Shown here: piece after piece, positions 2,701-26,357 of the stretch
Position numbering within the stretch: position 1 is the first letter of the stretch
Layout: the number at the start of each line of letters is the position of its first letter
Virus record (IMG/VR): IMGVR_UViG_3300036827_000193
Coordinates: 17,388 to 81,387 of that record
Origin: a virus
DNA length: 64,000 nt
Direction: 5' to 3' (one strand)
Notes under the pieces: generated by a model
What the model was told of the DNA's origin: nothing
What the model saw: the letters and a program-made list of their open reading frames with translations, nothing else
The model's database searches: none
Position numbers and translations under genes: made by a program

Positions 2701-5700
2701 TCACATCGCGCCGGCGGGAAGAGCACCGGCCGGAATTGCCGGCAGATGGACCTGCCGGTTGACCTCATTCTTCACCGTCTGGTGGGCTTTTGGCCAATAA
2801 CGGTTGCGCTCGTCCTTGCTGGCCTGGAGCAGGATTGCCTTCTGGTCCTCGTTCGGCAGCCGCGAGAACAGATAGATGTCGGTCGGAACGACGCCGACGT
2901 TTTGCATGTAGCCCGGCTTGAGGCCCAGCGCCTTGCCGCGCTGGTAGGCGTCCTGCAGGGCCTTGCTGTCGTGGTCGCGCTTGGCGATGAGGATGGCGCT
3001 GCGCACCGCCATCTTTTCTTCGGTGCCCTGGGCCTGCTCTTCCGGGCGGCTCGTCGGTGCGACATGCTCGCGGTACAGATAGCTGATGCGGTTCTGGATC
3101 GGCGACTTCTCGACATAGGCCGGTGCCGGGCCGAAGCCCAGCACGCTCATGCCGACGCCCTTGGCCTTGAGCGCATCGAGATATTGTTCCGGGTGCCGGA
3201 TTGCTTCGGCGGCGGACGGGAATGGCTTGCCGGACAACTCGGCCGCATGCTTGGCGCCCGACACCGACATCGGGTTGGTCTGGTCGCCGAAGAAGTGCTT
3301 CACGCCCTGCCAGACCTGCTGGTAGATCGGCGCGTTCTCGTCCCAGATGTTGTAGCCGTAATAATCGCGGTTGGTGAGGAGCTCGTGGAACGGCTCGAAC
3401 ATGAGCTTGTTCCACAGCATCTCGCCGGCGCCCGAGAGCCAGTTGCCGCCGCGCTCCTGCACGTGCTTGAGCAGCATCGGGACTTCGCGAAGGTAGAACA
3501 TGGTCGTGTAGCGGCGCGGCGAGCCATCCGGGTTTTCCCCGCCGGCTCTCGGAAACACATAATCGATACCCTCCGGCTGCTTGCCGGTGAAAAGGTTTGT
3601 CATTATCCCGGCAATGAGGGCGGCGGTGCCGACATAGGCCAGCACGAACGGGATCTTGTTGGTCGCATCACGCGTGACGGCGCGCCCGGCGCTCGGCTTG
3701 AAGGGCGGCAGAAGCCCCGCCGTTCGCGTGCCTGCTTCCAGCGTCGCGCCACCAAACTCGCGCACGAAGCCCAGGTTCCAGCCGAGCGAGAGGAACGAGC
3801 CGATCGCCGCGTCCTTCGTGGTCCGGTTCCAGAACAGCGTGCCGTAGCTCATCTCGCCATAGCGGTTGTCGATCGACTTTGCGATTGCGCGCAGCGCGAT
3901 GCGCCGATTGGTGTCGTCGGCCAAAAGTCCCGGGCGGCGCTTGAGCAGCGATGCCGCCTGATCGAGATAGGCCGCGGCCTTGAGCGCGGGGATCCATTTT
4001 TCGAACAGCGGGGCCTGCAGCACCTCGATCGGCCGGCGCATCGCCGCGGACACCGCCTTGCGCCAGTCCGAAGCGCCGGCCTCGCCACGCAGCACCTTGC
4101 GCCACGCGACCGCCAATTGACGCCTGGCGGCAATCTTCAATTGCTCGGACAGTTGCGGCACAAATCCGCCGTCCGTCATCAGCGCGACGACCGCCTTGTC
4201 CTGTGGCGTTTGCTGCGAGGGCCGCTTTGCCCAAGCCGCGCGGGCCTTGGCGCCCTTGCGGTAGTGGATCATGCCGAGCGTCGGGATCGTGCCGACGCCC
4301 TCTGCGGCAGCCTTGAGCGCCGCCGGCAGGTCGTGGCCCTTGGCGAGATCGTCCCATGCGCGCGCGAGCGAGTTTGCCTGGTCGATGTGCAGCACGTGCA
4401 GCGGGTGGAACGCCGAGAGCGCGAGCTTGATCGGCACCCAGGCATTCTTCAACGCCATCCATCCGCGGAACATCGAGCCGCCGACATGCTCGGCCTGCCA
4501 AAGCCCCTTGGCTTCGACGCCGTTCTGCCACAACTTCTGCACGTCGGGCACGATCACCCATTGCTGGCGATCGGGCGCATTGATGGCGCGCCAGCCGCGG
4601 CGCACCAATTGCTCGCCGCCCTGCTTGCCCTCCCAGGCAAGTCCCATGTCCTTGAGCTGGTAGAGCAGCTCCATGCGCTGGCGCATGTCGACGCCCGACA
4701 GCAGGCGGTGCACCACAATATCGACGGGGTTCGTGAAGCGAAGCTTGAGGCCCGCAGCCAGGCCTTCGGAAATGTAATCGTAGGTCCGCTTCTTCTGGAA
4801 CCAGGTCGGCCCGACCTGGGCGCTGCGCGTCTCCGAAAAAGCGCGCCACTCGTCGGGCTGTTCCCAGATGTGCGGGAAATAGTCGTCCACGAATGCTGCG
4901 CGCGAACCGTAGCGCTGCTCCTCGGCCCAGTTGGCATCGAGGATGCGCCGGTAGCGCCGCGCCATGTCGGCTTGCGTTGCGTCGGCCGGCGTATTGTTGC
5001 TCTCGACATCATCGAGAAAGCGGATGCGCTCGGCGTCGCCGCGCTTGTTCCAGTAATTCCACTGGCTCTCGCTTTGGCGGACGACGGCGTCTTTTTCCTG
5101 CGCCTGGCGCGCCTTGTAGCGGGCAAACAGCGGATCGGCCTCGAGCGCGCGGTCGCTGACAAGTTCGGGCTGGAATGCGGAGGTCCAGAAGTCCTTGAAC
5201 ACCTTGATGGTGCGGATCGGGTCGCCCATCGCGCCGAGTGTGTAGTGGCGGCCCTCTTCGGCAAGTCCTGTGCCGGCAAGTTCTGTGCCGGCAAGTTCTG
5301 CGTCGCCAAGCCCTACGCCGTGCGCGGCTCGCGCCGCTTGCGCTCGATCATCTGCTCCGCCGACGCGATCATGTCCTGGCGCAGCAACGTGTCCTGCGGC
5401 AACTTCCGCAGTTCGTGCAAATGATGCTCCCAGGTCGCCAGCGTGTCGAAGGCTCCCGGCGGATCGATCATCTGGAAGTTCGTCTGGGCCATGAACAGTC
5501 CCTCTCGCGGCATGGGCCGCCAATTCAATGTAGGCGCCGAGCCCAAGCTTCTCAATATCGTCGCCGAACGTGCTGTTCGAGCGGTAATCGATGATGCCGG
5601 CGCGGTGCAGCGCTACCGCGACGGCGTGCGGCAGCAGCGCGTTGGCGGTATCGCGATCGATTCGCCCCGACAACAACGCCGTGTTGATGATGTCGTAGAG

Positions 5701-8700
5701 CTTGTTCTGGACCGCCTCGTGGGCGGCGTAGAGGTATTTCGCCGCCGTAACCGGATCGAAGCGGCGCAGCGCTGCGCGTGCTGACGGTGTCAGTTCGGCG
5801 CGCGCGACATGGCCGCCATGGCCGTGCGCCCAGACCGCATGCAGGCCGGGCAGTCCGAGAAACCCGATATCGGGGCCGCTCAAGGTGCCATCGCGCGGGT
5901 GATTGTGGTGGATGACGATCGCGTTACGCGGATCGCTCGCGATCGCGAAGAGCTTGAGGTCTTGACCGGTGTTGCCAGGACCGCCGCGGGTGTGCGCCAC
6001 GACCTTGCCGTTCTGGTCGACCGCGACAAGATGTTCCAAGCCGGTAGCGATGCCCTGCCTGAGGACGTGGCGCTGTGCCCAGTCGCCGGCGAGCATGTGC
6101 TGGGGGATGGCGATCGGGCCGAGATCGTGCGCCGTGACCTTTGCGGGCTTGGTCTCGCCGGGCTGGAACAGGGCGAAGCCCTGCCCGGTTGCGGCCTGGC
6201 GCAGCGCTGGGGCGATGTCCAGGGTGTGGACGGTGTGCCCCGGATATTTGCTTTTATCCTGCTCCAGAACCAACCCGCGACTTAGATCATTTTGGAAATC
6301 GGCCGGTACTGTTGGCAATTTCCCTTGCCCGACTTTGCCGCCGTACTTCTTGACCAGCTTGTTCGCGGTCTTGGGCAGGATGTCGTCGTAGAAGCCGCGC
6401 ATGCCTTCGCCGCCGACCTTGAGGTCGAGGCCCGAGAGCGTCCTTCGGCCTTTGTCGGTGCCATAAAATCCCGAAGGCTTGCCCTCGCCGGCAGCGATGC
6501 GCGCCGCAACGTCCTTGCCGACGTGGTCGGGCAAGTCCTTTTCCGGAACGCCTTCTGCAATGCGGGTGTTGTCACTACGGCCCTTGAGACGAGCATCGAT
6601 CGTGTAGTGTCCGTCCGCGCCCTTGATGTAGTGCAGGTCGTCGATCTGCTTGCTCAGGTCGTAGCGATCCGCCTGCACATCTCCCGGCGTCCATGCAATC
6701 TTGTCGTAGCCGTGCTCTGCGGCGTAGCGGATGATCCGCTTCAGCGAGAGTTCGGGCCATGTGGTTTTGAACGGGGCGTCGGGGACGCGGGTTCCTTGTT
6801 CGTAGTCCCCATGGATTTTTGCGGAGCGCTGATAATTGTCGACAGCCTCTGCCCGCGCCACGTCTACCGTGTCGCCCCAGCCGGGCCGCTCCGAGCCGTC
6901 CGGCAATGCGAACCAGTGCTTGCCATGATCGCCGTCGGTGCGCACAAACTTGAAATCGCTGTCCGTAAACAGTTTTTGCGGCGGCTGCTTGTAGCCCTTT
7001 TTCTTCCCCGCCTGGTGCCAGTCGCTCTGCACTTCCTCGATGAACAGCGTTTTCTTGCCGTCGATGGTGCGGTCGTTGAAACGGATGTGGGCGAGGACGT
7101 TGGGCTCGTCGAAGTGGGGGGAACGGAAATCTTGATTGGCGGAAGGGGGGCGGTATTCGCGGTCAAACTGCGCGTACCTCTCACGCTCAGCGGGGGACAT
7201 GGCAGCCAGCGTATCATCAGTGCCGGTCGTGCCGTATTTACGGCGCATCTCCATCTCGAAGTCATGCCACGCATCGACTTGCGCGTTGCGCGACGCTTCT
7301 TCACCCGGCAACTTCTCCGGCAGCGTCAGCAGCAGCTCGCGGTAGTTCTCGCCGCCCGGCAGTGTGTACTGCCTGTATTGCGTACCGCCGATGTCGCCAC
7401 CGATTTCTCGCGCAAGATCGGCAACCGCGCCCTCAAAGGACTCGTGATCGCCAAGCATGGTGCCGCGGACAAACGCGGCGTATCCGGTCAGCTCTCCGTT
7501 CTTGTCGTGATAAACATCGATGCCCGTCCCCGTCGACCGGCCAGGCAAGGTCAGTTGCGTGGTCGTCCCGCCTTCATCGTTTTCGACTGGCTCGCCTTGT
7601 GTCCAGTCCTCGATGTCTGACGGCGGTTGCGCGTCGCTTTTCTCCACTTCGCGCACTTCGACCTGATGCGCGCGGACGTAATCGTGCACTTCGGCTTTCG
7701 TCACCGCGCCCTTGTGCTCGCGTAGCCAGTGCTCAAGGCCGAGCCATTCGATCTCCTCGGGCTTGACGCCCGGCGCATTCCTGATGGTGCCGAGCCAATG
7801 GTTCGGCGCCGCCTTGTCCTGCTTGACCGCGGCGACGGCGCGCTCCACTGCGGAGTAGAAGGCTGGCGCATGGCCGAAGGCGTCTTCGCTCTCGGCCAAG
7901 GCAAAGCCGTGTCCCGCCGGTCGCGCCTCTATCGTCTCGAACAAGTGGTCATAGGCCGCTCGGATGCCTTGGTCCCGCATCTCGTCGGCGGTTGGATAAG
8001 CACCACCGGCCGTGTCGATGTTGGCAAGGTAGTCGTTGGCTGCGCCTTTGTCGGCAAGCCGATCGACAATATATCGTTCAAATGAACGGGCGGCCTTCTC
8101 GATGGTCGTGTTCCAGTACGGCTTGGCACGAACCTTGTCGAATTTCGCCGCGCGATCCGCAAAGCCGCCTTTTTGCAGACTGGCCTCGACATTCTTCCAC
8201 GCTTGATAGACCTCGTGACGAACCGGGCCACCGTCGCGGCGGCGCTCGCTGATGTATCCGCTGGCCTGATCCTGCCGCGCGAAGTAGTTATCGAGCGCGT
8301 GCAGCCATTCGTGCGCGAGGGAGCCAGGGCCGCCGCCCTTTGTCAGATTGATGACGACTTGGCCCGGCTCGTAGTGGGCCGATGCCGCATCGCGTCCGCC
8401 ATGGCCGCGAGCGCCGAAGGCAAGCCCGAGCTCGCCGTTCAACGACAATGCCTGGGGCGGAACGCCGACGACATCGGCAAGGTCCATCAGCGCGTCAAAG
8501 GCGCGGTTAAGGTCGGCTTGTCGGCGTTGCCCTTCGACATAATTGCCGAACTGAACCCCGCGGAAGCCGAACGCGCCTGAGAACATTTCCGGGGTGACGT
8601 CGCCCTCGCGCAAGGCCTCGCCGCTGCGCGGTCGGTTTTCCGTGCCGCGCATGTTCGGACCCTTGCGCAGTGCGTCGATGGCCGCCTGCAGGTCGTCCCG

Positions 8701-23629: not shown

Positions 23630-26323
23630 TTACGCCGCGCTGTCCCACATCACGACCCGCGAGTTGAGCGAGTCGGTGTGGACCAAACCAAAACCGCCGA
23701 GGTAATTGATTGTGTTCACCCGTCGTCGCTAACGACGGGCCGAGACGACCTTTTTGTAGGTCAACTCTGCTGGCTCTTTCGAACCAGTCCAGACCATATC
23801 TTCAGTGACGCAAGTTGCTTTTTTGCGTTACTGCTGGGGGCTTCGGTGCGCTTGCACCTACGAGCTTTCGCTCTGGTCGTTGAAGCTTCCTCTGCGTGAG
23901 AGGCTCGCCTGCTGATTATCCAATCTCAGAACTTTTCAGGCCGTCACGCCTGCGGTCGCCCGCTACGTTGTGGCGTTCTGAGCTTTAGGAACTTCCAGCA
24001 ATTCTCCCAGTTTTTACGCCTAGCATTATTCTCTACCAGGCGATGCCCCGGCTGCGACCGTAGTCGCCCGGGATCTTCGCGCGGACTTCCTCGGGTACGC
24101 ACACGGCTTCAGTGACCGTGTCACCGCCGCAGAAGAACGCCCAGGAAGACAGGCCATTCGTCCACGGTTGCGCAACGCCGCTCCACGGATCGTACGACGT
24201 GGCATTCGCCGCGCCGCCCTTGGGAACGAACGTCTGCTCGATGAAGCGGCAGGACTCGTACCTGCCGATTTCGCCGTTGAAGATGTGCGCGAGACCGGTC
24301 TCGGTGTACTGGTGGATGGTCTCGAGCGAATTCTTGAAGTTGCGATACGTGGTCGGATGCGACACCGCCACGTAGTCATCCGCCGTGAACGGCGGAATGT
24401 TTCGCTCCTTCATGGTGTCGACGATCGCCTTGACGTGCCCGGTACCGAGCGCGACGTTGTTCGTCACGGTTGCGGTGCCGTTGGTGTCGAGGTTGATGGC
24501 GGTCGTCGAAGTGCTGGAAGACGGCTCGGCGCGCAGCAGAGTGTTCTTGAACTGCAAGAACGACTCGATGTCGAAGTATTTGCGCGCGTCGTCCTTCAGC
24601 GTTTTGTCGATGATCGCGGCGACCTGATGCTTCGCCAGCGCGACCAGCTTGCCGGTGTAGGGAACGCTATTCCCAGCTTCAAAGCAGAATTGTTCTTTGC
24701 CGCGGCTCTTTATCCGCAGCCTCAACCGCTCGCGCGATTGCTCAGACTATCTCTTGCAGATTACTGTGATCTGCCCGGGCGCTCGTGGTCGGATTATTCT
24801 TTCGTCACCGACTAGTCGTTACGCCTTCCGCGCCCCTGGGGCTCTCGCCTTACATGCGCGACTTGGCTCGGGATTGTCTCTGAGAGAGGTTCCCCGAATT
24901 CACCCGGTGTTTCACCTTACGCGGCGAGCGCGAAGGTGCGGCCTGTGTTGACCGTAAGCTGGTGTTGCAGCATGACGAACCCGGTCTCCGGGATCGGGGC
25001 GCTTTCGTCCAGCCGGCGGCCTTGCGTGCCGAGGTTGGAATAAACGTCCCAGTTGAACTTGTCGCCGCGGTTGAGGCCTTTCTTGGTGCCATCCTCGGCG
25101 TCGCAGAGCTGCCGCATCTTGGTCAGCGGCTGCACCTGCTGGCGGAGCACGTCCGACAATTCGTCGGAGTACATGAATCCGCCCTCAGTGGGGACTGCCT
25201 TTTGTTCGCACGATCCCGTTTGTGGATCGTTCCTGCATCTTTCAATGCAGAGCAGACTATATCTTGAAATCTTCTGCCGGTATCCCACATACATCCCTAG
25301 CGGGGAAACACATGCGCATCACCAAATCACAACTCGTCGCCCTCTACGCAAAGAGGACTGACGATCAAATCGGCAAGCTGTTCGGCGTAACCGGCCATTC
25401 AGTTGGCGATTGGCGACGGCATTATGGCATCCAGCGCAAACCAAGAGAGACTTACAACAAGTATACCCTTGATCGCGATTTTTTCGCGAAGATTGACACC
25501 GAAGAGAAGGCGTACGCGCTCGGTCTTATAGCGTCCGATGGATGGGTGGCCCGATCTGGAAAGCAAGTGAGCCTTGCTCTTCAGGTTCGAGACCGGCACA
25601 TCCTTTATGATCTTCGACGCGCCCTGAAGTCGGATGCTCGTGTCTTCGACAAGGCGAGAGGCGGCTTTGCCGGCTCTGGCCCGCGGAAACAGATTACCTT
25701 CGACAGCAAGAAGCTGGTCGCCGATCTGGCGCGCTGGGGTGTCATCCCCGGAAAATCAGTCACCCTCCGCTACCCCCGTATTCCGAAACATCTTGAGTGC
25801 CATTTTGCGCGAGGACTTTTTGACGGGGATGGGCACATTCGCGCCCACCCGAAAAAGCTCTTTTATTTTCTTGGCACTTCCGACCTGATCGACGGACTAC
25901 GAAAGTCGATCATCCGACATACGGGCGCGGCGCTCGCCAAGTACGAGGCCGTGGGCTGTTGGCGGATTTCTGGATACGGTGGCAGCGTCGCGGTGCTGCG
26001 GTGGATGTATGAAGATGCGACGATCTGCCTTCGCAGGAAGCATCGCGTCTTCTTGAGGTACTGGAAGTGATGTCCTGGGCGCTCGTGGGACCGATTATCG
26101 TCGGGGTCTCACAGTCCTAGTCGTTGAACCTTCCGAGCTACAGTTTCCCCTGCTCGGCTTGGCTGCTGATCGGCCAATCCCTGATCTTTTCGCGCATTCA
26201 CGCTCGCCCTCTCGGGCCACGTTGTAGCGATCAAGGCTCTAAGGCTGTTCCAGCAATTCACCCAGTGCGCACTCTGAACTCGCATTCAGAGGGGGGCTAA
26301 GTTACCCACAATTGTCCTGCCAT
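23630..26323 (-). CDS. Major capsid protein (N4-gp56-like, ~330 aa) in four exons: 26323-~26305, ~25198-24951, 24684-24035, 23706-23630
   Basis: Spliced frame MAGQLW/AVPTEGGFMYSDELS..QLTV/FEAGNSVPYTGKL..GEIGRYESCRFIEQ..GRSRGIAW/YYLGGFGLVH..WDSAA; follows scaffold; AAGGA SD. Confidence 0.92.
23707..24034 (-). ncRNA. Group I intron 3 in the capsid gene (328 nt, no ORF, apparent terminal A)
   Basis: P1 cgcctggt/gctaggcg with U.G; P gaattgctggaa, Q aatcagcag, R ttcaacgacca, S aagatatggtc; P10 taat/atta. Confidence 0.9.
24685..24950 (-). ncRNA. Group I intron 2 in the capsid gene (266 nt, no ORF, canonical U|...G|)
   Basis: P1 cggt/gccg with U.G; P gaattcgggga, Q aatcccgag, R gtaacgacta, S aagagatagtc; removal restores the frame (gt|c ttt gaa gct). 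Confidence 0.93.
25199..26305 (-). ncRNA. Group I intron 1 in the capsid gene (~1.1 kb, homing endonuclease in the P8 region; boundaries uncertain by 1-2 nt)
   Basis: P gaattgctggaa, Q gatcagcag, R gttcaacgacta, P3 ctgggtg/cgcccag, S aagatatagtc, P9 ctgcat-tgaaag-atgcag. Confidence 0.9.
25312..26070 (+). CDS. Intron-encoded LAGLIDADG homing endonuclease with N-terminal HTH, antisense to its intron
   Basis: AYALGLIASDG and HFARGLFDGDG motifs; FFAKIDTEEKAY; GGGGA SD before ATG 25312. Confidence 0.9.
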   Translation: MRITKSQLVALYAKRTDDQIGKLFGVTGHSVGDWRRHYGIQRKPRETYNKYTLDRDFFAKIDTEEKAYALGLIASDGWVARSGKQVSLALQVRDRHILYDLRRALKSDARVFDKARGGFAGSGPRKQITFDSKKLVADLARWGVIPGKSVTLRYPRIPKHLECHFARGLFDGDGHIRAHPKKLFYFLGTSDLIDGLRKSIIRHTGAALAKYEAVGCWRISGYGGSVAVLRWMYEDATICLRRKHRVFLRYWK

Positions 26324-26357
26324 CTGACAGGGTCCTTTCTCATGAATGCCCGTGCCG

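What the first reader, a model, noticed from the sequence alone, without database searches (positions are those of the whole stretch)
25195..26310. Intron 1 cannot satisfy both canonical splice rules
Seen: P1 (gggt-aactta-gccc) predicts cleavage after U 26304. With that site, the nearby in-frame 3' junction leaves a terminal A (25200; protein MAGQLWVAVPTE). Using the terminal G (25199 or 25198) needs a 5' exon ending in G (26306 or 26305; protein MAGQLWAVPTE). Either way one conserved rule is broken. With intron 3, this suggests a lineage of introns with relaxed splice-site chemistry.
Basis: partly seen in the sequence, partly recalled or inferred. Interest (0 to 1): 0.7.

Follow-up and report, generated by a model that had tools for sequence, protein, structure and literature searches.

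The report
Capsid intron with off-rule splice site
The first self-splicing intron in this phage's only capsid gene closely resembles the phage T4 td intron, but splicing at the td-equivalent sites would break the reading frame, so it probably cuts one base earlier, after a G instead of the near-universal U.

Summary
The only major capsid gene of this 81-kb phage lies on the minus strand at 26323-23630. Three group I introns split it. Intron 1 resembles the T4 td intron and carries an antisense LAGLIDADG endonuclease gene. More than 150 intron-less relatives all have exactly five residues between W6 and GG. No U...G junction in the window keeps that spacing.

By likeness to T4 td, whose annotated exon join I read directly, the cuts should fall after U26304 and G25198. 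That joins 994 nt and gives a stop at codon 11. A second copy of intron 1 in an IMG/VR contig, about 80% identical, has the same one-base excess. A third copy, seen only as a protein, again reads Ala after the intron tail. A sequencing slip is therefore unlikely.

The best reading is UGGG|U...G|CA. The terminal G is kept, and a G-C pair replaces the U·G wobble at the 5' cut. This gives MAGQLWAVPTEGG: 993 nt, 330 aa and no gaps against relatives. My confidence is about 0.5, and no RNA data were available. Nine of eleven sibling introns satisfy both rules at the homology-fitted junction; L035 intron C and window intron 3, which appears to end in A, do not. The exceptions are individual introns, not a whole lineage.

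The parts
26305..26323 (-). Exon 1 of the major capsid gene (MAGQLW plus the first base of codon 7) under the favoured junction.
   Evidence: A ribosome-binding site (aaagga) lies upstream of ATG 26323. The MAGQLW start is conserved in all relatives. The three base differences from L005 are all synonymous in this frame.
25198..26304 (-). Intron 1 (1107 nt): a td-like group I intron under the favoured junction UGGG|U...G|CA.
   Evidence: It matches Rfam RF00028 at 50.7 bits. A homologous copy is present in L005. Its P1, P7-P9 and 3' tail resemble T4 td. The exon model gives 993 nt and 330 aa with no gaps.
26294..26307 (-). P1 hairpin: gggu (26307-26304), loop aacuua, guide sequence gccc (26297-26294), with U26304.G26297.
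   Evidence: It is the minimum-energy fold in both the window and L005. It has the same GGGU| exon end as T4 td.
26272..26291 (-). P2 hairpin (cucugaa/uucagag).
   Evidence: Compensatory changes support it: L005 has aucugauc/gaucagau with a GCAA loop.
25312..26070 (+). LAGLIDADG homing endonuclease gene, antisense to the intron, in the P8 loop.
   Evidence: It matches Pfam PF14528 at E 3e-7. L005 has a homologue 71% identical in the same antisense position. Rfam places the insertion in P8.
25233..25262 (-). P7 3' strand (auauaguc), J7/9 (ugcu) and the P9 hairpin (cugcau..augcag).
   Evidence: This stretch is near-identical to T4 td (gatatagtctgctctgcatggtgacatgcag). The P7 pair gacua/uaguc keeps the G-C pair of the G-binding site.
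25211..25229 (-). Last hairpin (cgaucc/ggaucg, loop acaaacg).
   Evidence: It appears in the predicted fold. L005 has an equivalent hairpin, gcgcuuc/ggagcgc.
25198..25210 (-). 3' tail u-gcgaaca-aaag-G, ending in the proposed terminal G25198.
   Evidence: The (G)AACA-N3-5-G| tail is shared with T4 td (ugaacauaaug|c), L005 (gcgaacaucag|c) and the sibling introns. A candidate P9.0 pairing covaries between the copies: cu:ag in the window and ug:ca in L005.
24951..25197 (-). Exon 2 (second and third bases of the Ala codon, then VPTEGGFMYS...QLTV).
   Evidence: It is 90% identical to intron-less relatives.
24685..24950 (-). Intron 2 (266 nt). Both sites are canonical: acggU|c...cuG|c.
   Evidence: Relatives read LTV|[YF]EAGN. 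P1 is cggu/gccg. Rfam (42 bits) took P2 for P1.
24035..24684 (-). Exon 3.
   Evidence: It matches relatives at E 7e-133 and 91% identity.
23707..24034 (-). Intron 3 (328 nt). The 5' site is canonical after U24035 (P1 gccuggu/gcuaggc). The last base by homology is A23707.
   Evidence: It matches Rfam at 68 bits. Relatives read GIAWYYLGG, which requires U+AU at the junction. A 4-bp P10 (auua/uaau) can be read. The tail ugaacacaauca| is td-like.
23630..23706 (-). Exon 4, including the stop codon.
   Evidence: It matches relatives over residues 301-329.

Best explanation
Intron 1 is a mobile, td-like (subgroup IA2-type) group I intron with an antisense LAGLIDADG homing endonuclease. It sits between the first and second bases of capsid codon 7, an Ala codon (G|CA). 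I propose that it is excised as 26304..25198.

Under this reading the 3' cut follows a normal terminal G (G25198). That G sits where td and the sibling introns have theirs, at the end of the AACA tail. The 5' cut follows G26305, which pairs with C26296 of the guide sequence. A G-C pair therefore occupies the place of the usual U.G wobble. The single guide G (26297) pairs with intron base U26304 before splicing and with the first exon-2 base C25197 (P10) afterwards. The ligated exons ...GGG-C... then form an unbroken Watson-Crick helix with the guide gccc. The product is MAGQLWAVPTEGG..., 330 aa.

A simple route leads there from a canonical ancestor inserted at a Ser allele (UGG U|CN, guide GGCC as in td). 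It needs a Ser-to-Ala change (U to G at position -1) and a compensating G-to-C change in the guide.

Shown here: the sequence facts, the homology, the frame arithmetic and the conservation in a second copy. Inferred: the actual cleavage position and the evolutionary route.
For: (1) Length. The exon set 26323-26305 / 25197-24951 / 24684-24035 / 23706-23630 totals 993 nt and 330 aa. It matches relative P0007 at 299 of 330 residues with no gaps. The td-equivalent sites give 994 nt and a stop at codon 11.

(2) Spacing. All intron-less relatives have W-[A/S/T/G]-x4-GG. WAVPTEGG itself occurs in an intron-less relative, P0215.

(3) Second copy. L005 shows the same pattern, UGGG|U...AUCAG|CG, which gives MAGQLWAIPAEGG. 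This is the only solution that ends in G in both copies at the same aligned position.

(4) Third copy. In the read-through ORF P0121, the codon after the intron tail is again Ala (GCN), as expected if a terminal G is followed by C.

(5) Tail position. In T4 td, in window intron 2 and in most of the nine introns of L004, L005, L035 and L037 the intron ends in G, 4-6 nt after an AACA motif that follows the last hairpin. G25198 is the fifth base after AACA, exactly as in td.

(6) Candidate P9.0. The last two J7/9 bases pair with the two bases before the terminal G, and the pairing changes on both sides: window CU:AG, L005 UG:CA, P0121 AG:C?. Five different pair types occur across the family.

(7) P10. 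The first exon-2 base C pairs with the guide G in both copies only under this register. td and intron 2 also pair C(+1) with a G.

(8) Independent experiments. In an IStron library every alternative 3' site used ended in G (bioRxiv 10.64898/2026.03.11.711047).
Against: A G:U pair with the U on the exon strand is described as the strict requirement for 5' site choice (PMC6155759). A U.G pair (26304/26297) is present one position further on and is conserved in both copies. L005 even reads GGGU|UAAU exactly as td does, so a td-like ribozyme would be expected to cut after the U. From general knowledge of the Tetrahymena ribozyme, replacing the wobble pair lowers activity, and I know of no natural intron with a purine at position -1.

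Only two DNA copies exist, so nothing here is statistically strong. The 2-bp P9.0 fits 9 of 13 family members but not td itself. Another register also fits the upstream G25209. No RNA evidence could be obtained.
Confidence: 0.5

Rival explanations
1. Both chemical rules are kept and the protein is longer. The 5' cut is after U26304 and the 3' cut after G25209, right behind the last hairpin. The td-like tail is then translated, giving MAGQLW-VEQK-AVPTEGG (+4 aa). L005 would cut GCGCG|AACA and give MAGQLW-VTS-AIPAEGG (+3 aa).
For: These are the only in-frame U...G pairs that use the conserved P1. G25209 lies 11 nt upstream of G25198, and alternative 3' sites near the native one are used by mutant IStrons. 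A 2-bp P9.0 can also be drawn for these sites (GC:GU in the window, GU:GC in L005). Intron 3 has an analogous +4 aa canonical alternative at G23719.
Against: No relative among more than 150 seen has anything but 5 residues between W and GG. The two copies would use different aligned Gs within the conserved GCGAACA motif. They would read that motif in different frames and add different numbers of residues. The same tail is clearly intronic in td, in intron 2 and in the sibling introns. An in-frame G is guaranteed by the GNGNG run at the hairpin end, so its presence carries no information.
Confidence: 0.13
2. Splicing is td-like at both sites (after U26304 and after G25198), giving an mRNA one base too long with MAGQLWVSPH-stop. 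The capsid protein would then come from some other event: a frameshift, a start at Met15 (AUG 25174) behind the GAGGG of the EGG codons, or the frame-2 ATG 26343. Alternatively, the gene is defective in these metagenome-derived genomes.
For: Both boundaries are the exact counterparts of the annotated td exon-intron boundaries. Rfam's model pairs U26304 with G26297 as the splice-site pair. In the window the spliced product has CCC-C, where a +1 slip would restore WVSPTEGG, and frame 2 has an ATG giving MRKDPVRWQDNCGS-VPTEGG. Gene callers often start this protein at Met15, giving the 316-aa forms.
Against: None of the rescue routes is conserved. L005 has no CCCC slip site, no early stop and no start codon in frame 2. 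The N-terminal MAGQLW-x5-GG is conserved across the family down to about 55% identity, so a truncated capsid protein is unlikely to work. This is the only capsid gene in a genome rated 100% complete. The arrangement persists in copies whose endonucleases have diverged to 71% identity. Exon 1 differs from L005 only at synonymous positions.
Confidence: 0.14
3. The 5' cut is canonical after U26304 and the intron ends in a base other than G. It ends either in C25197, giving MAGQLWVVPTEGG with the right spacing, or, in A25200, giving MAGQLWVAVPTE.
For: The conserved U.G pair is used. Val after Trp is the rule in the wider family, which reads MAGQLWVTNSLGG. The terminal-C version is conserved in L005, where GC|G gives MAGQLWVIPAEGG. 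Intron 3 of the same gene seems to end in A, so a non-G end may be tolerated here.
Against: The P7 G-binding pair is the ordinary G-C. In the IStron library every 3' site used ended in G. The bond that would be cut lies one base beyond a perfectly placed G. The terminal-A version is not conserved (it is C in L005), gives a 6-residue spacing and lies outside the tail register. The 'GC' before exon 2 would mimic the Ala codon of relatives by coincidence in three copies.
Confidence: 0.1
4. Assembly or sequencing artefact: one G too many in the GGG run of exon 1. The true sequence would be UGGU|...G|CA, a fully canonical site in a Ser allele (WSVPTEGG).
For: Removing one G makes everything canonical and gives Ser. 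Ser encoded by TCN is the commonest residue at this site, in 18 of 44 unique intron-less alleles.
Against: L005 is an independent contig from another sample, about 80% identical across the intron, and it has the same GGG. The guide gccc pairs with all three Gs in both copies. Long ORFs in the window are intact, which argues against frequent indel errors.
Confidence: 0.04

Closest known systems
Phage T4 td (thymidylate synthase) group I intron, subgroup IA2
   Same: The 5' exon ends GGGU, and in L005 it is followed by UAAU exactly as in td. P1 is short, with a guide sequence G-C-C-N directly before P2. The P7 3' strand, J7/9 and P9 are near-identical (AGAUAUAGUCU-GCU-CUGCAU..AUGCAG). The 3' tail (U/C)GAACA-N4-G is followed by exon base C. 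A homing endonuclease gene lies in a peripheral loop. I compared the sequences directly.
   Different: In td the U.G cut is in frame and the guide has two Gs: GG-CC, one for U(-1) and one for C(+1). Intron 1 has a single G, and cutting at its U.G pair gives a frameshift. td's endonuclease, I-TevI, is a GIY-YIG enzyme encoded on the sense strand. Here it is a LAGLIDADG enzyme on the antisense strand, in P8.
Window intron 2 and the sibling introns in related capsid genes (IMG/VR loci L004, L005, L035, L037)
   Same: They share the host gene family, the core, the last hairpin with an AUAAAGA or ACAAAC loop, and the AACA tail. P1 helices are short (for example cggu/gccg).
   Different: At nine of eleven junctions the site fitted by protein homology obeys both rules, with U at -1 and a terminal G. 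The exceptions are L035 intron C, whose canonical sites fit the protein poorly, and window intron 3.
Window intron 3
   Same: It is in the same gene, has the same td-like tail and is also off-rule.
   Different: Its 5' site is canonical (U24035). Its last base by homology is A23707, supported by a 4-bp P10 and a 2-bp P9.0. The rule it breaks is therefore the opposite one.
Group I introns in capsid and tail genes of Cluster J mycobacteriophages (PMC3706429)
   Same: They set a precedent for self-splicing introns in phage structural genes.
   Different: I took only the title and abstract and did not compare sequences. The title and abstract mention no off-rule splice sites; I did not read the full text.

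Membership tests
Group I intron (Rfam RF00028) | Conserved catalytic core (P3-P8, with the P7 G-binding G-C pair). | tested here: met
   The covariance model scores 50.7 bits against a gathering score of 50 and aligns full length. P7 is gacua/uaguc.
Group I intron (Rfam RF00028) | The 5' splice site follows a U that forms a U.G wobble with the internal guide sequence in P1. | tested here: inconclusive
   The U.G pair exists (26304/26297) and is conserved in L005. Cutting there is out of frame with the best-placed terminal G. The favoured junction follows G26305.
Group I intron (Rfam RF00028) | The intron ends in G. | tested here: met
   G25198 sits at the td-equivalent tail position and is conserved in L005. 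It is met only under the favoured junction, not if U26304 is used with the 5-residue spacing.
Group I intron (Rfam RF00028) | Self-splicing with a guanosine cofactor. | not testable with these tools
   No RNA run was listed. An in-vitro assay is needed.
td-like IA2 phage introns | Sequence likeness of P1, P7-J7/9-P9 and the 3' tail to T4 td. | tested here: met
   I read the T4 sequence directly and compared it. The core also hits staphylococcal, streptococcal and other phage introns by blastn.
td-like IA2 phage introns | The extra helices P7.1 and P7.2 that define subgroup IA. | not tested
   The stretch between P7 and P3' (gg-acugugagaccccgacgauaaucggucccacg) could hold them, but I did not analyse it.
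LAGLIDADG homing endonuclease | LAGLIDADG domain. | tested here: met
   It matches PF14528 at E 3.2e-7 and 31 bits against a cut-off of 22.5. Two motifs are visible in the ORF, LGLIASDG and RGLFDGDG.
N4-gp56-type (HK97-fold) major capsid protein | Full-length homology to proteins so named. | tested here: met
   Exon 3 matches at E 7e-133 and 91% identity to 330-aa proteins that JGI names 'N4-gp56 family major capsid protein'. The Pfam PF13252 match is only weak, at 17 bits against a cut-off of 23.

The most novel reading that the evidence does not exclude
Natural, functioning td-like group I introns in a phage capsid gene do without the two most conserved splice-site nucleotides. Intron 1 would cut after a G paired G-C, with no U.G wobble at the reaction site. 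Intron 3 would ligate after a terminal A despite an ordinary G-binding pocket. Together they would show that P1/P10/P9.0 geometry alone can define both splice sites in vivo.
Probability: 0.3. Interest if true: 0.8.

Novelty: new variant of a known kind. Interest (0 to 1): 0.55.

Why it matters
The U.G wobble at the 5' splice site and the terminal G are the two near-invariant nucleotides of group I introns. They underlie intron annotation, ribozyme engineering and trans-splicing design. Here the only capsid gene of a complete phage genome cannot be expressed if its first intron follows both rules, and the same holds in an independently sampled relative. If the G-C junction is confirmed, it would be a natural example of 5' site choice without the wobble pair. 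A short in-vitro splicing assay could test it. In practice, gene callers that place group I junctions by the U...G rule will frameshift this capsid protein. The database already holds many N-terminally truncated 316-aa versions of this protein.

Tried and rejected
RNA evidence: the look-up of sequencing runs listed no RNA holder for 23650-26350.

More copies of intron 1:
- An exact 24-mer of the core found only the L005 contig in IMG/VR and nothing in the metagenome contigs.
- The endonuclease protein found only L005 plus four distant hits of 31-39% identity.
- The pattern ATGGCNGGNCARYTNTGGGT found only L005 plus intron-less WVTNSLGG capsid genes and chance hits.
- A tail-plus-exon-2 pattern found only L005.
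- A second capsid query gave 77 more IMG/VR loci, and none carried a new intron.

Rejected junctions:
- 5' cuts after U26308, U26310 or U26311 are out of frame or delete Trp.
- An alternative P1 (aacuu/gaguu, U26299) gives in-frame U...G junctions with +1 or +2 aa. It breaks the covarying P2 hairpin and has no L005 counterpart.
- L005 alone has a U...G solution with the right spacing (UGGGUU|...GCG|AUA). It needs a U.G pair closing a 3-nt loop next to a U-C mismatch, and the aligned window bases are A and A.
- A +1 slip at CCC-C and the frame-2 ATG 26343 exist only in the window.

Other: a 5-bp helix cugcu/ggcag in the minimum-energy fold of the 3' region uses P7 bases and is absent in L005. 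Literature searches for natural exceptions to the U or terminal-G rules found nothing usable, and PMC298070 is not held.
Full report
WHAT IS THERE

The window is part of an 81,387-bp IMG/VR virus record that CheckV rates 100% complete, and the record has one capsid gene. That gene lies on the minus strand from ATG 26323 to the stop at 23630. Rfam's group I intron model hits it three times. The hits are at 26313-25233 (50.7 bits, gathering score 50), 24936-24723 (42 bits) and 24106-23770 (68 bits). Exon 3 alone finds about 4,000 relatives. The best are 330-aa proteins at about 90% identity that JGI names 'N4-gp56 family major capsid protein'.

Fitting the exons to these relatives gives the following:
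- Exon 1: MAGQLW plus a part codon.
- Exon 2: ...VPTEGGFMYS...QLTV.
- Exon 3: FEAGN...GIAW plus U.
- Exon 4: (Y)YLGGFGLV...SAA.

Rfam's own P1 assignments for introns 2 and 3 are wrong, because the model took P2 or exon sequence for P1. The homology-based junctions are acggU(24951)|c...cuG(24685)|c for intron 2 and ccuggU(24035)|a...aaucA(23707)|au for intron 3.

Intron 1 carries a 252-aa LAGLIDADG endonuclease gene (Pfam PF14528). It lies on the opposite strand at 25312-26070, within the P8 loop.

CHECKING THE OBSERVATION

The hairpin gggu/aacuua/gccc is the predicted minimum-energy fold, and the covariance model takes it as P1 with U26304.G26297 as the splice-site pair.

I enumerated all in-frame junctions within about 40 nt of each boundary and rebuilt the full coding sequence for five models:

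| Junction model | CDS length | Outcome |
|---|---|---|
| G26305\|...G25198\| | 993 nt | 330 aa; 299/330 identical to P0007; no gaps |
| U26304\|...G25198\| | 994 nt | Stop at codon 11 |
| U26304\|...C25197\| | 993 nt | Val at residue 7 |
| U26304\|...A25200\| | 996 nt | +1 aa |
| U26304\|...G25209\| | 1005 nt | +4 aa |

There are five residues between W and GG in 12 of 12 proteins read and in the intron-less loci. The same holds for 75 further uninterrupted loci, the wider MAGQLWVTNSLGG clade and every N-terminus. The statement 'no junction satisfies both rules and keeps the protein' is therefore correct.

IT IS NOT AN ERROR

One IMG/VR contig (IMGVR_UViG_3300050119_000072; loci L005, L038 and L039) has a homologous intron at the same site. 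Column identity across the aligned region is 84%, the antisense endonuclease is 71% identical, and P2 shows compensatory changes. It reads ...CUCUGGGU UAAU GCCCCC ... GCGAACAUCAG CGAUACCC.

The arithmetic is the same as in the window:
- The U.G cut plus the tail-end G is one base too long.
- UGGG|...G|CG gives MAGQLWAIPAEGG.
- UGGGU|...GC|G gives Val.
- The U...G option that uses the conserved P1 falls at a different aligned G of the GCGAACA motif and adds three residues rather than four.

A third copy is visible only as a read-through ORF, P0121 (...EPRDNIT|AVAAEGGYMYS). Its first codon after the tail is again Ala.

RELATION TO KNOWN INTRONS

I read the td region of phage T4 directly. It runs cuuggguǀuaauugaggccu ... 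gauauagucugcucugcauggugacaugcag ... ucugaacauaaugǀcuaccg. Intron 1 shares four features with it:
- The GGGU exon end. In L005 the following UAAU is shared as well.
- The short P1 immediately before P2.
- The P7-J7/9-P9 block, which is almost identical base for base.
- The tail (G)AACA-N4-G followed by exon base C.

By homology with td, the cuts 'should' therefore fall after U26304 and after G25198. That is exactly the combination that frameshifts.

The sibling introns show the same tail, and nearly all end in G 4-6 nt after AACA. They are window intron 2 and nine introns in L004, L005, L035 and L037. All have U at position -1 by protein homology. At nine of the eleven sibling junctions both rules hold. 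The two that do not fit are L035 intron C and window intron 3. The family as a whole is therefore orthodox.

WHICH RULE GIVES WAY

Evidence on the 3' side favours G25198.
- It is the td-equivalent position, and it is a G in both DNA copies.
- It explains the recurrent Ala codon in read-through frames.
- A candidate 2-bp P9.0 changes on both sides between copies. It pairs the last two J7/9 bases with the two bases before the terminal G. The pairs are CU:AG in the window, UG:CA in L005 and AG:C? back-translated from P0121. Elsewhere in the family they are AG:CU, AU:AU and GA:UC.
- This P9.0 is weak evidence. It fits 9 of 13 introns and does not fit td, and another register also fits G25209.
- A large IStron mutational study found that every alternative 3' site used ended in G. 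That argues against a terminal C or A.

If G25198 is the 3' end, the frame requires the 5' exon to end at G26305. In that register the ligated exons GGG-C pair continuously with the guide gccc, and C(+1) pairs with the guide G. C(+1) also pairs with a G in td and intron 2, each of which has a second G for this purpose.

Compared with td (guide GG-CC, exon GGGU), intron 1 looks like td with the U(-1).G pair replaced by G-C. Intron-less alleles carry Ser (TCN, 18 of 44 unique) or Ala (GCN, 16 of 44) at this codon. A canonical ancestor at UGG U|CN could therefore have become UGG G|CN by a Ser-to-Ala change plus a compensating change in the guide. This route is my inference.

The main objection is that a G:U pair with U on the exon strand is regarded as a strict requirement (PMC6155759). 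A conserved U.G pair also sits one step further along the helix.

THE RIVALS

- Canonical chemistry with a 3-4 aa insertion. This conflicts with the invariant spacing and with the intronic nature of the tail in every relative.
- td-like splicing with rescue by frameshift or an alternative start. It finds partial support only in the window (a CCC-C slip site, and a frame-2 ATG at 26343) and none in L005.
- A non-G terminal base. This conflicts with the ordinary G-binding pair and with the IStron data.
- An extra G from sequencing. This conflicts with the independent second contig.

I put the G-C junction at about 0.5. The matter therefore rests on an experiment.

INTRON 3

P1 (gccuggu/gcuaggc) fixes U24035. 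Relatives read GIAW-[YF]-YLGG. The only way to make that Tyr is U+AU, which leaves A23707 as the last intron base. The exon start auua pairs with the P1-loop uaau (a 4-bp P10), and 'uc' before the A pairs with J7/9 'ga'. The tail ugaacacaauca aligns with td's ugaacauaaug, so the A sits where td has its G. The nearest in-frame G (23719) would insert LNTI into the invariant AWYYLGG motif. P7 keeps its G-C pair. Whether this intron splices, or whether this genome carries a damaging G-to-A change, cannot be decided here.

VERDICT

This is a real, conserved and unexplained departure from group I splice-site rules in an otherwise ordinary td-like phage intron. The 'relaxed lineage' idea is not supported as a family trait.

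Noticed in passing
window 23707-24034 (intron 3): By protein homology (GIAW-Y-YLGG), a 4-bp P10 (auua/uaau) and alignment of its tail with T4 td, intron 3 ends in A23707, not G. Its P7 G-binding pair is the ordinary G-C. The nearest in-frame G (23719) would insert four residues into an invariant motif.
   Followed up: partly
window 24685-24950 (intron 2) and 24035-24106: Rfam's alignments misplace P1 for introns 2 and 3. For intron 2 the model takes P2 (caccuucgcg...aaggug) for P1. For intron 3 it takes exon sequence as part of the intron. The true junctions are 24951|24950, 24685|24684 and 24035|24034.
   Followed up: yes
window 25312-26070 (+) and L005: The LAGLIDADG endonuclease gene is encoded antisense to its host intron, inside P8. 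This orientation is conserved in the second copy (71% aa identity). It must therefore be transcribed against the late capsid transcript.
   Followed up: partly
L004 about 4245-5700 (IMGVR_UViG_3300047409_000266): A 21-nt micro-exon (UUAUGAAGCUGGCAAUUCGGU, encoding part of V-YEAGNS-V) lies between two group I introns inserted at neighbouring sites (LTV^YEAGN and NSV^PYTG). Both introns have canonical U...G junctions.
   Followed up: partly
protein database hits: This capsid family is an intron hot-spot. Truncated ORFs and split loci indicate insertions after W6, FNWD, LTV, EAG, NSV, DDAR, ERNI(P), TGLA and GIAW. About 5 of roughly 110 IMG/VR loci are interrupted. Gene callers often start the protein at Met15, giving the 316-aa forms.
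   Followed up: partly
L035 about 1585-2150 (IMGVR_UViG_3300021476_000058), intron after ERNIP: Neither canonical 3' site fits. The tail-end G (...acaacuG|gauuac) removes five conserved residues (PFTAD). The G just upstream of the tail (...gcugcgcG|auaaca) leaves the protein one residue short and translates the tail into an unrelated peptide (ITQL). This may be a damaged gene or another off-rule junction.
   Followed up: no
L037 about 6230-6250 (site NSV^PYTG intron): The P7 3' strand reads auaguu instead of auaguc. The G-binding pair would then be G.U rather than G-C.
   Followed up: no
window 26302-26343, frame 2: ATG 26343 opens MRKDPVRWQDNCG. This frame ends in UAA exactly at the 5' splice site, and td-like splicing would join it in frame to exon 2. 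It is not conserved in L005, so it is probably chance.
   Followed up: yes
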